Source: Prorocentrum cordatum
Taxonomy: Eukaryota
Length of the DNA: 54,232 bases
Assembly: GCA_963575745.1 (NCBI GenBank)
Contig: CAUYUJ010000257.1
Span: forward strand, 62,001 to 116,232
Direction of reading: 5' to 3'
The position numbers and the translations under genes were made by a program. The notes under the pieces were generated by a model. The model saw nothing but the letters and a program-made list of their open reading frames with translations, was not told where the DNA came from and did no database searches. This document shows positions 8,801 to 11,800 of this stretch, one piece after another. Position 1 is the stretch's first letter; each line of letters starts with the position of its first letter.

Positions 8801-11800
8801 CCCCGTCCTCCTTGTGGGACTCTTCTGTGGCCCTTCCCAAACGCTACTAGAACCCTCTTAGCGAAACGCAGCTAGGGAAAACCAGGCGCTCTGACACCCC
8901 GCTGCTGTGCAGGCGCGGTGGCGGACAACTTAGCGTGCGTTGTCCAGGTGGTCCTCGACCTCGCCATCACCTACAGCATCTCGTACCTACGGCTTGTGGG
9001 AAGGGAGATCCGGACCTACGACGGGACGCCCCTTTCGGAGCTCCCCACGTTCGTGGAGAGGATCGAGGCCTACCCGATGCAGCAGGAGCTCGGAAGAGAG
9101 GTCTGCACGCTCGCGTGGCTCCTCCTCCACCTTCTCCCTCCTCCTCCCTCCTCCTCCTCCTCCTCCTCCTCCTCCTCCTCCTCCTCCTCCTCCTCCTCCT
9201 CCTCCTCCTCCTCCTCCTCCTCCTCCCGCCTCTGCCGCCGCGGCGGCAGGCAGACTTCCCGCCCATGACTCATTCCCATTCCCCTCCTCCTCCTCCTCCT
9301 CCCCCCTCCTCCCTTCTGCTTCCTCCTCTACCTCTCCCTTCCGCTCCCCCCGTGCGAGGTCTACATGTTTGCGTGGCCGGCCACCTTCCTCCTGCCCTTC
9401 CTGATCGAGCCCCTGATCACCGTCTACGTGCCCTTCAAGCTGATGGAGTACATTGTACGGAGCCACAGGGAGATCACTTACACCACCGCAGAGGCATACG
9501 CACCTGCGTCCCAGAGTCACCCCACTCTGGCGGCCCCAATGAAAAGGAGGAGGAGGAGGAGGAGGAGGAGGAGGAGGAGGAGCAGAAGGACAATGAAAGA
9601 GGACGAACACAAACATCAAAGCACAGAGGCCTTCCTCTCTGCCGTCCCGTTTGACCTGTCGCGGTACGCCGACATAAACCTCAACATTATGCTTGCGGTT
9701 CTGATATCCAGCTGCCTACGGCAGACCCCACCACCGTGGCAGCGCAGCAGCGCAGCAGGGAAGAGAGGGAGGAGAGAGAGGGGAGGAGGGGGAGGAGCAG
9801 GAGCAGGAGCAGGAGCAGGAGGAGGAGGAGGAGGAGGAGGAGGAGGAGGAGGAGGAGAAGAGTTCAAGACCCGCTCCAATTCGTTCGGTGCCCTGTCTGA
9901 ACTGGCGCGGGTCCTGAATAAGTCGTCATTGTCCTCAGCTTCGTTTTCCTCCTCCCCCCTCCCTCCTTGTTCTTTTCCTGGCCATCCCTCCTCCCTCTTC
10001 ATCTTGAAGGCGTCTGGTCACTCCTGCAGGCTTAGTGATTCTCTTGTTTTCTTTTCAGGGCCCTCTCGAGTGCCTATTCGGGGCTCGTTGTGGCCCCTTT
10101 GGGTCCGTGGGGCTGTCTTGGGCTCGATGGTTCAGCCGAGCTCTCCCGAAGAGGCTCGGTTGAGCCATCTTGGGGATGCCTGGGCGGGAGTTGGGGCAGT
10201 CTGTTAGCCCTCTCGTGCGATCTTTGGCCGTCTCGGGGGTTTGCGGGCAGTCTTTGGGCTGACGGAGGGCCTTTCTGGGGCCATCTTGGGCCGTCTCAGG
10301 AGCTCATAAGGGGCTCCCTGAAGCTTTCGCGAGGCGTTCAGCAGCCGAAAAGCATCGGAAGCAACTCAACTTCAGATCAACTTGTGATTGTTTGCGTTTG
10401 CCTCCCAGGGCCTCGCTGGAGGCCGCGCTGGGTGTCTCTTCGGGGCCTCCTGGTGCCTCTTGGGGACATCTTGGAGCCTTTGGGGGCTGCTGGGCTGTCA
10501 TTCGGTCATTCTGCAGCGGCCCTCGGGGGGTCTTCGTCCGTCTCGGAGCCGCCCAGGGGACAAGCAACGATGTGCCGCGAAGCAGAGGGGGATCATCTTG
10601 GGAGGGTGGTTGCGATAAGGCAGAGCAGGACCAGGTACGGATACCGCTACCCTTCCCTCGTTTTCGCATTTTTTCGGGGCCTCCTGGGAGGCCCTCGTCG
10701 CCTCCGCTGGATGCACCTCGAAATTCTGGTCAGAACGCTCCTGGGGAGAGGTTCGGGGAGTAGCGGTATCGGTACCTTTTGGTTTCCCCAGAAGGGGGGA
10801 GGGCGGCCCTGGAAATTGGCAGAATCCCTACAGGACAACCAAAGGGCTTGTCGATCCGCCCCAGCGCGCCGAAGGCAAGGTGGCGGGTTCTTTTTTCCCG
10901 GTGGCTACACCCTCCCTTTGTTTTTGGGGCTGGTGGGCAGTCACATGTTCATTTATTGTTACGACCACTGGCGCATCCTCAGGTCGTCGCCGAGTTGTTA
11001 CTTCTCCACGATGCAGGTGGCTCCTGACAAATTCAATACGTAAATAGCAGCGCACGCTCAGCAACACCAACTCGACTTTCTCAAACTAGAGGCCTTGCCT
11101 CGCTTTCCAGGGTTCAGGGGATTTCCATTTCTCCGTCGGCGGAAGCTGGCGGAGGGCTCGCGGACTCCAGCGGAAGCAATGCGTTGATGGCTTCGTCAGT
11201 TTCGATGGCGGATTTTTGTTCGGAAGCAGGCGGAAATAGACGTCACCGCCCCAAGAGAAGGCTGAAGGCTCAACGCCAGCGTACCCAGAATTTCTGGGAC
11301 CGGCCGGATGTCGGCTAGTCGTAAGACTGACCTCCCGCTGGAGTGACCTTTTTGGTGCATGCCCACAGGGGTCACCCCTCCAGCACTGGCTTGCTTGCAC
11401 GCTCGCCTTTGCCCCCCCCACCACTCCTCCCTTCTAGGTCTTCGATCATGGACCCCTTGGTGAATGCAACCGTCAAGCTTTCGCGCCGAAGATCGCCGAG
11501 ACCACCGAAGGCCGTCAGAAGACCGCCAAAGACCGCCGAAGACCGCCAGAAGCGCGCCGAAGACCACCCAGGACCGCTTGGTGACAGGGGTTCCATGGTC
11601 GAGTGCGCAGTCTTTCGCCCAGGGCCACCCTTGTGTGGAGCCGACAGGTGAGCGACGCTAAACAAACGGGGTCGTCTGCGCCGACACTGCCGCGCAAGCT
11701 GCTCGCGTAAGGTCGCGCGCAAGCGTCCTCGCTTCCAGCGCAGCGTACTGCGCGCCAGCGGCCCGCGCAAGCCTGCGGCGCAAGGTCCCTGTGCTGTCCC

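What the first reader, a model, noticed from the sequence alone, without database searches (positions are those of the whole stretch)
9706..10886. Non-canonical intron 8 splits a transmembrane helix with no usable canonical alternative nearby
TGCCT-A-CGGC (9713-9722) pairs with GCCG-A-AGGCA (10868-10877), and CCA pairs with TGG. The terminal 8-mer GGTGGCGG is identical to that of intron 5. The spliced codon is ATG or ATA depending on register, so this junction fixes the exact cut site for the whole class.
Basis: partly seen in the sequence, partly recalled or inferred. Interest (0 to 1): 0.8.

Follow-up and report, generated by a model that had tools for sequence, protein, structure and literature searches.

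The report
Unannotated non-GT-AG intron class, dinoflagellate
The flagged stretch is a real 1181-base intron that is cut out of the messenger RNA at sites that break the usual splice-site rules, and it shares conserved ends with two other introns of the same dinoflagellate gene, a kind of intron that the published gene model of this organism misses.

Summary
RNA contigs from 4 of 4 laid runs (4 studies; 2 on record as polyA RNA) join 9706 to 10888, skipping 1181 nt. The intron is 9707-10887 (TC..GG) or 9708-10888 (CC..GT), never G[T/C/A]..AG.

The gene is annotated in Prorocentrum cordatum. It has 16 mapped introns. Thirteen fit the dinoflagellate G[T/C/A]..AG rule. Three do not: i5 7445-8925, i8, and i12 15771-22802, which I found.

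The three share A|TYCASNTGC at the 5' end and AGSCNNGGYRGCGGR| at the 3' end. Only one cut register fits all three. The last 30 nt align without gaps with 15 of 30 columns identical. i5 and i8 share 32 of 43 positions at the 5' end.

The end pairing exists but is only moderately unusual (p about 0.01-0.02). It is absent from full-length folds, and a local 3' hairpin competes with it.

In-frame canonical alternatives do exist near i8, but none gives the conserved protein. The published model is wrong at i5 and truncated around i7/i8.

Best reading: an unannotated, introner-like family of non-canonical introns in a core dinoflagellate.

The parts
9707..10887 (+). Intron 8, 1181 nt, ends TC..GG (equally fitting register 9708-10888, CC..GT); phase 0
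   Evidence: joint 9706>10888 in one contig each of X4, X13, X1 and X15, side 83, both 1.: shift analysis; no G[T/C/A]..AG register is possible.
9629..9706 (+). Exon 8 (starts at 9624-9631 depending on the register of intron 7; 9629 under GC..AG), ends ...CTG ATA
   Evidence: table 8 (pieces 9624-9706)
10888..11016 (+). Exon 9, begins TTC TTT TTT CCC GGT GGC TAC ACC (FFFPGGYT); its donor is a GT..AG intron starting at 11017
   Evidence: pieces 10888-11020; next exon at 14699; FFFPGGYT invariant in 20 of 20 sequences
9707..9717 (+). 5' terminal motif TCCAGCTGCCT, preceded by exon TA; class consensus A|TYCASNTGC
   Evidence: TCCASSTGCC: 2 hits in the window, both at the starts of introns 5 and 8
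10873..10887 (+). 3' terminal motif AGGCAAGGTGGCGGG; class consensus AGSCNNGGYRGCGGR|
9713..9722 (+).
   Evidence: reading; duplex -21.8, p 0.02; local hairpin in the MFE; long-range pair probability 0.001 or less
10868..10877 (+).
10858..10887 (+). 3'-terminal 30 nt: aligns without gaps with the last 30 nt of i5 and i12, and can fold into a local hairpin
   Evidence: 15 of 30 identical columns; consensus hairpin of 10 pairs, 0 compensatory; -12.4 kcal/mol, p 0.048
7445..8925 (+). Intron 5, sister member, 1481 nt, TC..GA (alternative register 7444-8924, AT..GG); phase 2
   Evidence: joint 7443>8925 in 4 of 4 runs, both 1; (32 of 43 identical to i8 at the 5' end)
15771..22802 (+). Intron 12, third member, 7032 nt, TT..GA in the class register; phase 1
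   Evidence: only 4 registers reproduce the transcript-derived protein P0002, and none is G[T/C/A]..AG.: the ends match the class (23 of 30 identical to i5 at the 3' end). No read-level evidence was laid here.
10459..10791 (+). Nested repeat inside intron 8, not part of the splice signals; 83% copy at 4641-4777
   Evidence: loose ends at 10459 and 10791; X15 depth 524

Best explanation
Positions 9707-10887 are a genuine intron of a multi-pass membrane protein gene of the dinoflagellate Prorocentrum cordatum. It is removed precisely from the mRNA between A9706 and T10888. Its ends (TC..GG) cannot be read as the dinoflagellate G[T/C/A]..AG type.

It belongs to a small family of at least three introns in this one gene (i5, i8, i12). 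All three lie in the sense orientation and have no boundary repeat longer than 3 nt. Their insides are unrelated, but their termini are conserved: exon A | T-Y-C-A-S-N-T-G-C ... A-G-S-C-N-N-G-G-Y-R-G-C-G-G-R | exon.

Most likely these are copies of a non-autonomous, introner-like element whose own termini serve as the splice signals, so that removal at the exact element borders restores the reading frame. Recognition probably relies on the conserved terminal sequences together with structure formed by them. That structure could be pairing of the 3' motif with the first 10-30 nt of the intron, which brings the two cut sites together, or a 3'-terminal hairpin. This resembles what is described for hairpin-ended non-canonical introns of Amoebophrya and for euglenid nonconventional introns.

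Shown: the junctions, the registers, the shared motifs, and the mis-annotation. Inferred: the transposon origin, the role of structure, and the machinery.
For: **Junction**
- the joint 9706>10888 is present in contigs of 4 of 4 runs from 4 studies. X1 and X15 match the exons with 0 other letters. X4 carries strain differences yet has the same joints.
- no canonical register is possible for i5 or i8.

**Protein**
- transcript-derived proteins P0002, P0003 (90% identical) and P0004 (87%) read ...LAVLIFFFPGG... and ...MLLY(N/S)(L/F)AC....
- in 20 sequences (3 proteins plus 17 of the 49 metatranscriptome homologues found), FFFPGGYT is invariant, the Ile before it is present in at least 90%, and no sequence has a gap at the junction.

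**Class**
- 13 of 16 introns fit GT (2), GC (4) or GA (7)..AG. Three do not.
- i5 and i8 share 21 of 28 end positions. The best of the other 104 pairs shares 15. Among random pairs, the fraction reaching 22 or more is 2.5e-5.
- i5 and i8 share 32 of 43 positions at the 5' end.
- the last 30 nt of the three align without gaps, with 15 of 30 columns identical.

**Structure**
- terminal duplexes score i5 -18.5 (p 0.009-0.011), i8 -21.8 (p 0.02) and i12 -23.3 / -32.2 (p 0.012-0.014).
- the last 30 nt of the three class introns are the three most stable local folds among the 16 introns.

**Single locus**
- only one P. cordatum genome-derived protein (P0001) matched.
- P0001 is mis-modelled exactly at i5 and at i7/i8.

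**Precedent**
- PMC7789003 (passages and section 11 read): Amoebophrya non-canonical introns with inverted repeats at their ends.
- PMC10666404 (passages read): the P. cordatum annotation tools were modified only for GC and GA donors, and 99.9% of annotated donors are GT, GC or GA.
Against: - All runs are Logan contigs. These show presence, not absence, so minor alternative isoforms and unspliced precursors cannot be judged.
- Two of the four runs are not on record as RNA.
- No DNA run was laid, so a second gene copy lacking the three insertions is not excluded.
- i12 rests on a protein-to-genome match only.
- End pairing is not exceptional with 40-nt ends (p 0.2-0.3). Two canonical introns, i0 and i15, score as well (p 0.013-0.043).
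- End pairing is absent from full-length MFE and partition-function folds.
- The helix sits at different offsets in i12 (8 nt from the 5' end, 2 nt from the 3' end) than in i5 and i8 (1 nt and 4 nt).
- The consensus 3' hairpin has 0 compensatory changes and 5 broken cells in three sequences.
- No further member was found in the other 50 kb of the window.
- No transposase-like domain was found in i12. 13 of 21 ORFs of 150 aa or more were scanned.
Confidence: 0.6

Rival explanations
1. The conserved terminal sequences, not any helix between the two ends, are what is recognised, for example by a dedicated RNA or protein factor or a relaxed spliceosome. The complementarity of the ends would then be a leftover of the element's inverted repeats or a by-product of G+C richness.
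For: The motifs are conserved in sequence and register in 3 of 3 members, whereas the best helices differ in position. Full-length folds do not contain the end helix. Canonical introns i0 and i15 pair as well. There is no compensatory change in the consensus 3' hairpin.
Against: All three members fall in the top 1-2% for terminal complementarity despite different paired sequences. Their 3' ends are the three most stable local folds of 16. Three sequences are too few to separate sequence conservation from structure conservation.
Confidence: 0.25
2. The three stretches are transposon insertions (Helitron-like: no target duplication, inserted after A, starting TC/TT, with a 3' hairpin) in a silent copy of the gene. 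The mRNA would then come from another, uninterrupted copy, so nothing is spliced at these sites.
For: There are no boundary repeats beyond 1-3 nt. The host base before the element is A in 3 of 3 members, and the base after is T in 2 of 3. The termini are conserved while the insides are unrelated. There are local 3' hairpins. Dinoflagellate genes are often multi-copy (general knowledge). No DNA run was examined.
Against: 3 of 3 insertions lie in coding exons, which make up about 3 kb of the 29-kb gene, and all three are in the sense orientation. That is unexpected for random insertion. X1 and X15 contigs match 2.2 kb of exons of this copy with 0 differences. Only one genome-derived protein of this organism matched. 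The 3' ends are CGGR, not the CTRR recalled for Helitrons. i5 is followed by C, not T. No Rep/helicase or other domain was found in i12.
Confidence: 0.1
3. They are minor-spliceosome (U12-type) introns with degenerate signals, since TATCC occurs at the 5' border of i5 and i8.
For: i8 has ATATCCAG and i5 has CTATCCAC across the 5' border. This resembles the recalled U12 5' consensus RTATCCTY.
Against: The cut lies 3 nt inside that motif (after TA), not before it. The termini are not AT-AC or GT-AG. i12 has ACATTCAG with no TATCC. No TCCTTRAY-like branch motif is visible in the last 45 nt of any member (reading).
Confidence: 0.03
4. The junction is an artefact of contig assembly or of chimeric contigs across repeats.
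For: All evidence comes from assembled contigs, and the gene is rich in simple repeats.
Against: The same joint occurs in 4 independent studies with 83 nt and 133 nt of unique exon on either side. An independent transcript-derived ORF and two orthologues have the same peptide. An invariant family motif is restored exactly.
Confidence: 0.02

Closest known systems
Non-canonical introns / introner elements of Amoebophrya strains A25 and A120 (Farhat et al. 2021, PMC7789003; passages and section 11 read)
   Same: Both are in the dinoflagellate lineage. Boundaries are neither GT-AG nor GC/GA-AG. The two intron ends are complementary and proposed to bring the exons together. Families are repeated, have no transposase inside, and are missed by standard gene predictors.
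   Different: The Amoebophrya elements are defined by 8-20 nt inverted repeats plus 3-5 nt direct repeats overlapping the borders, and average 120-240 nt. Here the repeats are imperfect (4-7 bp blocks), the boundary repeat is 1-3 nt, and lengths are 1.2-7 kb with nested repeats. The terminal motifs also differ (TYCA.../...GCGGR against TTA-RR...G or TAT...AAA). The host is a free-living core dinoflagellate in which only G[T/C/A]..AG introns are annotated.
Euglenid nonconventional introns (Euglena splicing code N3-CDG ... CH'G-N5-6 | R, Nomura et al. 2025, PMC12501133, abstract read; Milanowski et al., listing and abstracts only; review PMC11282704, passages read)
   Same: Both coexist with conventional introns in the same gene. 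Borders are variable and non-GT-AG. Short complementary triplets lie near both ends at staggered distances. Length is very variable, a MITE-like origin is suspected, and the machinery is unknown.
   Different: The Euglena code is not met. There is no CDG at +4..+6 and no CH'G at -8..-6 or -9..-7. The downstream exon starts with a pyrimidine in 3 of 3 members (T, C, T). The lineage is unrelated. Here 9-15 nt terminal motifs are conserved rather than a 3-nt pair.
Dinoflagellate introners of Symbiodiniaceae and Polarella (Roy et al., bioRxiv 10.1101/2020.10.14.339549, parts 1-2 of 4 read) and 'introner elements' counted in P. cordatum (Dougan et al. 2023, PMC10666404, passages read)
   Same: Intron-generating repeated elements in dinoflagellate genes. 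The P. cordatum paper reports introns enriched in inverted repeats at their ends.
   Different: All described classes use GH..AG splice sites and have 3-8 nt target-site duplications that supply a splice site. The three introns here have neither. The 13 conventional introns of this gene, with 3-11 nt boundary repeats, do look like that known kind.
Helitron-type rolling-circle transposons (features recalled, not tested against a library)
   Same: No target duplication, insertion after A, 5' TC in 2 of 3 members, a hairpin near the 3' end, and conserved ends with unrelated insides.
   Different: The 3' end is CGGR, not CTRR. The hairpin reaches to 1-3 nt from the end. One member is not followed by T. 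No Rep/helicase was found. All copies lie in the sense orientation inside exons and are absent from the mRNA.

Membership tests
Dinoflagellate spliceosomal introns, G[T/C/A]..AG type | Intron starts with GT, GC or GA | tested here: not met
   i8 can only start TC or CC; i5 can only start AT or TC.: i12 can only start AT, TT, TC or CA.
Dinoflagellate spliceosomal introns, G[T/C/A]..AG type | Intron ends with AG, usually followed by G | tested here: not met
   the ends are GG/GT (i8), GG/GA (i5) and GG/GA/AT/TC (i12). The next exon base is T, C and T.
Amoebophrya-type introner elements (Farhat 2021 criteria, also used for P. cordatum) | Non-canonical boundaries supported by RNA | tested here: met
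   i5 and i8, 4 of 4 runs; i12, protein level
Amoebophrya-type introner elements (Farhat 2021 criteria, also used for P. cordatum) | Inverted repeat of 8-20 nt between the 5' and 3' ends, within 30 nt of the ends | tested here: inconclusive
   i12 has a perfect 8-9 bp repeat. i8 has 5 + 4 bp around an A.A mismatch plus 3 bp. i5 has 4 + 7 bp with a bulge and a G.U pair. Whether imperfect repeats count depends on the criterion.
Amoebophrya-type introner elements (Farhat 2021 criteria, also used for P. cordatum) | Direct repeat of 3-5 nt overlapping the exon/intron boundaries | tested here: inconclusive
   i5 and i8 fail: the boundary repeat is 1 nt in each ('both' = 1). For i12, the four registers imply up to 3 nt, which would reach the lower bound, but this is known from the protein match only.
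Amoebophrya-type introner elements (Farhat 2021 criteria, also used for P. cordatum) | Repeated family with similar sequences | tested here: inconclusive
   Three copies share their ends, but there is no internal similarity. The genome is not available for counting copies.
Euglenid nonconventional introns | 5' N3-CDG and 3' CH'G-N5-6 followed by an exon purine | tested here: not met
   Reading: +4..+6 of i8 is AGC (or GCT); -8..-6 is GTG and -9..-7 is GGT; the exon starts with T.
U12-type (minor) introns | Cut immediately before RTATCCTY; termini AT-AC or GT-AG; TCCTTRAY branch site near the 3' end (features recalled) | tested here: not met
   the cut lies after TA, inside TATCC. i12 lacks TATCC. 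No branch motif is visible in the last 45 nt.
tRNA-type bulge-helix-bulge introns / Ire1-type introns | Splice sites in two 3-nt bulges around a 4-bp helix formed by the intron start and the downstream exon; or CNG|CNGN loops at both cuts (features recalled) | tested here: not met
   Reading: the first intron bases of i8 (UCCAGC) have no complement in UUCUUUUUUCCC. The cuts are A|U and G|U, not within CNGCNGN.
Helitron insertion | 5' TC, 3' CTRR, insertion between A and T, no target duplication, subterminal 3' hairpin (features recalled) | tested here: inconclusive
   TC is present in 2 of 3 members. A|..|T flanks are present in 2 of 3. There is no CTRR in any of the 3 (CGGR instead). There is no duplication in 3 of 3. 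Hairpins are present but not unusual at 45 nt.
CSC1/OSCA/TMEM63-anoctamin superfamily (the host gene) | Match to PF02714 / PF14703 / PF04547 profiles | tested here: not met
   0 Pfam families for P0003 and P0004.: no PDB relative. Only the language-model look-alike search points there (score 0.97), which is a lead.

The most novel reading that the evidence does not exclude
Core dinoflagellates possess a second, so far unannotated intron system. This would be a mobile family of introns with fixed non-GT-AG termini (A|TYCASNTGC ... GGYRGCGGR|) that are excised exactly at the element borders. If 3 of 16 introns in one gene is typical, it may account for a sizeable share of introns and of broken gene models in Prorocentrum. 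The combination of exon-only location, sense-only orientation and no target duplication would also fit spread by reverse splicing into transcripts rather than by DNA transposition.
Probability: 0.3. Interest if true: 0.85.

Novelty: new variant of a known kind. Interest (0 to 1): 0.7.

Why it matters
The P. cordatum gene set was built with tools modified only for GC and GA donor sites (PMC10666404, passages read). Here the published protein gains six residues at i5 and is truncated before the conserved FFFPGGYT segment. If the class is common, many dinoflagellate gene models, intron statistics and introner surveys are biased.

Biologically, structured or motif-defined non-GT-AG introns are so far described at scale in euglenozoans and in the parasitic Amoebophrya. 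A version with long conserved termini in a free-living bloom-forming dinoflagellate offers a new system for asking how such introns are recognised and how they spread. Its cut sites are already fixed to the base by three members.

Searches of the held library found no paper describing such introns in Prorocentrum or other core dinoflagellates. Supplementary notes of PMC10666404 were not read and could bear on this.

Tried and rejected
- **No genome:** no whole genome is held for the window, so the class could not be counted genome-wide.
- **Earlier scan notes:** nothing for this genome. A word search returned only unrelated tRNA and group I intron notes.
- **Protein family searches:**
  - Pfam on single exons and long ORFs gave only sub-threshold chance hits.
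  - Pfam on P0002-P0004 found no family.
  - PDB phmmer gave one chance hit at E 0.89.
- **Rfam:** at gathering thresholds over 3-33 kb there were 0 matches, so no known small RNA lies in the introns.
- **blastn between introns:** i5 against i8 gave only 13-17 nt matches. i12 against i5 and against i8 gave nothing.
- **More members in the window:**
  - The strict 5' motif occurs only at i5 and i8.
  - With up to 2 mismatches there were 112 5' hits and 25 3' hits, mostly in simple repeats.
  - The one suggestive pair on the minus strand (50224 / 49801) lies inside a 473-codon open frame with no Pfam family and was judged chance.
  - Short-query blastn of the ends was noise.
- **L049:** this 18-kb contig from the metagenome scan is not a convincing relative (22 residues).
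- **Metagenome loci:** the other 48 loci match exons 9 and 10 contiguously, so they are intronless transcripts and say nothing about intron conservation.
- **Multi-step splicing through canonical sites:** rejected on logic. The bases kept in the mRNA force a cut next to TC/CC and GG/GT whatever the order of steps.
- **Uncovered bins:** intron bins without cover are not used as evidence.
- The same comparison was then made by references.
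Full report
**1. What is at the coordinates**

- TGCCTACGGC lies at 9713-9722 and GCCGAAGGCA at 10868-10877. They are complementary except for one A.A.
- CCA at 9708-9710 faces TGG at 10881-10883.
- GGTGGCGG lies at 10879-10886 and again at 8917-8924 (13 hits in the window against 3.84 expected; only these two sit at intron ends).

The upstream frame ends ...CTG ATA and the downstream frame begins TTC TTT TTT CCC.

**2. The decisive test**

- No whole genome is held.
- A run search with 5200-11100 listed 24 runs. Of these, 18 hold part of the stretch, with word shares of 0.20-0.29, as expected if only exons are present. Three are on record as RNA.
- I laid four runs from four studies on 4900-12700: X4 and X13 (polyA RNA), X1 (guessed RNA) and X15 (unknown kind).
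- All four have a contig that joins 9706 to 10888, skipping 1181 nt. There are 83 nt on the shorter side and 1 nt of ambiguity.
- The mRNA therefore reads GTTCTGATA|TTCTTT.
- The intron is 9707-10887 (TC..GG) or 9708-10888 (CC..GT).
- The CAAG|G acceptor at 10879/10880 is not used in any contig.
- Caveat: contigs show presence only. Rare isoforms, precursors and DNA copies were not examined.

**3. The gene**

- A search with one exon found a 100% identical annotated protein of Prorocentrum cordatum (P0001, 1025 aa). It also found a transcript-derived ORF (P0002) and two orthologues at 90% and 87% identity (P0003, P0004).
- Pfam and PDB sequence searches give no family.
- The language-model look-alike search points to CSC1/OSCA/anoctamin-like clusters at 0.97. 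This is a lead only.
- P0002, P0003 and P0004 read ...NIMLAVLI|FFFPGGYT... across the junction.
- In an alignment of these three plus 17 of the 49 metatranscriptome homologues fetched (42-55% identical), FFFPGGYT is invariant, the preceding Ile is present in at least 90%, and no sequence has a gap there.
- The junction lies in a hydrophobic stretch, as does that of intron 5.
- The published model P0001 is wrong at both places. At intron 5 it uses an inner GT (7450) and AG (8912) and so inserts PRAVAD. After exon 7 it skips exon 8 and most of exon 9, then reads into intron 9 to a stop (with coordinates).

**4. All introns of the gene**

Sources were the contigs, the loose ends and exact matching of P0002 to the window. 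Together they map 16 introns between 3.7 and 32.6 kb.
- Thirteen can be read as G[T/C/A]..AG: GT 2, GC 4, GA 7. They have identical boundary repeats of 3-11 nt, which is the known dinoflagellate pattern (PMC10666404 table: GT 24.7, GC 51.4, GA 23.8% of annotated donors).
- Three cannot:
  - i5, 7445-8925 (alternative register 7444-8924);
  - i8, the finding;
  - i12, 7032 nt, which I found. Only four registers reproduce the protein (AT..GG, TT..GA, TC..AT, CA..TC).

**5. A class with fixed ends**

- The three share exon A | T-Y-C-A-S-N-T-G-C at the 5' end and A-G-S-C-N-N-G-G-Y-R-G-C-G-G-R | at the 3' end.
- i5 and i8 share 21 of 28 terminal positions. The best of the other 104 intron pairs shares 15, and random pairs reach 22 or more at 2.5e-5.
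- Counted from two exon bases on, i5 and i8 are identical at 32 of 43 positions without gaps.
- The last 30 nt of the three align without gaps, with 15 of 30 columns identical and 23 of 30 between i5 and i12.
- Their insides are unrelated and contain other repeats.
- Relative to the motifs, the allowed registers intersect in exactly one. The intron begins with the T of TYCA and ends one base after GCGG. That gives 7445-8925, 9707-10887 and 15771-22802, in phases 2, 0 and 1.

**6. Is the pairing more than chance?**

- With 40-nt ends it is not: p 0.32 for i8 and 0.20 for i5, against 3000 random pairs of the window.
- With the terminal 16-30 nt, each member reaches p of about 0.01-0.02: i5 -18.5, i8 -21.8, i12 -23.3 and -32.2 kcal/mol.
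- Two conventional introns, i0 and i15, score similarly.
- The helix sits 1 nt and 4 nt from the ends in i5 and i8, but 8 nt and 2 nt from the ends in i12.
The 5' arm of i8 forms a local hairpin (9711-9721 with 9734-9743), and the 5' end of i5 pairs with the downstream exon.
- A second candidate structure emerged. The last 30 nt of the three class introns are the three most stable local folds among the 16 introns (-17.8, -13.2, -12.4; p 0.004-0.048).
- RNAalifold gives a consensus 10-pair hairpin for these 30-nt ends, but with 0 compensatory changes and 5 broken cells.
- Overall, structure at the ends is a plausible class property. Which structure, and whether it matters, is open.

**7. Canonical alternatives**

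- Within donors 9680-9900 and acceptors 10700-10900 there are 277 in-frame, stop-free G[T/C/A]..AG pairs.
- The nearest would give LAVL-QGGG-FFF or LAVLI-SSGG-FFF.
- 0 of 277 give the observed peptide.
- So alternatives exist, but each would insert residues before an invariant motif, and none is seen in the contigs.

**8. Comparison with known kinds**

- *Amoebophrya.* Its non-canonical introns have 8-20 nt inverted repeats and 3-5 nt direct repeats at the borders, form strain-specific families, and defeat standard annotation (PMC7789003). The present introns work alike in outline. However, i5 and i8 fail the direct-repeat criterion (1 nt each), the class has only imperfect inverted repeats, and the motifs and lengths differ.
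- *Euglena.* The code N3-CDG/CH'G-N5-6|R (PMC12501133 abstract) is not met.
- *Described dinoflagellate introners.* All use GH..AG and target duplications (bioRxiv 10.1101/2020.10.14.339549, parts 1-2).
- *Reviews.* The 2024 reviews report other boundaries in dinoflagellates only for Amoebophrya (PMC11453091 and PMC11282704, passages read).
- *U12-type, bulge-helix-bulge and Ire1-type signals.* These are not met in register.
- *Helitron-like insertion.* This fits several features (after A, TC start, no duplication, 3' hairpin, conserved ends). It does not fit the CGGR end, the exon-only and sense-only placement, or the perfect match of transcripts to this copy. No transposase-like domain was found in i12.

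**9. Verdict**

- This is a genuine non-G[T/C/A]..AG intron, one of at least three with conserved termini in one gene. The cut site is fixed to the base.
- It is unannotated in the published gene model and, as far as seven library searches show, not in print for core dinoflagellates.
- The mechanism (helix-guided, motif-guided, or other) and the genome-wide extent remain to be shown.
- The silent-copy rival needs DNA reads to be closed.

Noticed in passing
window 15771-22802: A third intron of the same non-canonical class (7032 nt, TT..GA in the class register). It was not mentioned in the finding. It was inferred from an exact match of the transcript-derived protein P0002 to the window. Its 3' end is 23 of 30 identical to that of intron 5.
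   Followed up: partly
window 3700-32566 (13 conventional introns): The G[T/C/A]..AG introns of the gene carry identical repeats of 3-11 nt at both borders. Examples are GGGCAGGAGC at 7133 and 7296, and CTTCCAGGAC at 23077 and 30760. GA donors are the commonest type (7 of 13). This looks like the known introner / repeated-boundary pattern of dinoflagellates.
   Followed up: partly
window 7450-8912 and 9489-11040 (protein P0001): The published Prorocentrum cordatum model uses an inner GT..AG pair in intron 5, which adds six residues (PRAVAD). It also loses exon 8 and most of exon 9, ending in intron 9.
   Followed up: yes
window 10459-10791 and 4641-4777: A repeat nested in intron 8 has an 83% identical copy upstream of exon 1 and an internal inverted repeat. 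RNA contigs of X4 and X15 enter and leave it with loose ends, and X15 depth there is about 524. It therefore appears to be transcribed from other loci.
   Followed up: no
window 13251-13711: An 11-nt tandem array (AGCTTTAGCTT, 41.6 copies) lies inside intron 9. Long GAG/CTC microsatellites occur in several introns (6590-6670, 9119-9226, 9768-9857, 12767-12883).
   Followed up: no
window 5660, 5721, 7373: A-to-G differences in exon sequence appear in the contigs of X4 and X13 but not in X1 or X15. They could be strain polymorphism or mRNA editing, which the contigs cannot distinguish.
   Followed up: no
window 12208-12700: Contigs unrelated to the gene, with many loose ends and X15 depth about 479, cover part of intron 9. 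This suggests another transcribed repeat or gene inside that intron.
   Followed up: no
L001-L048 (metatranscriptome contigs): There is a large family of about 3-kb marine transcripts 47-59% identical to this protein over exons 9-10. All have the invariant FFFPGGYT and DWW motifs. The family has no Pfam model, and look-alike clusters are CSC1/OSCA/anoctamin-like.
   Followed up: partly
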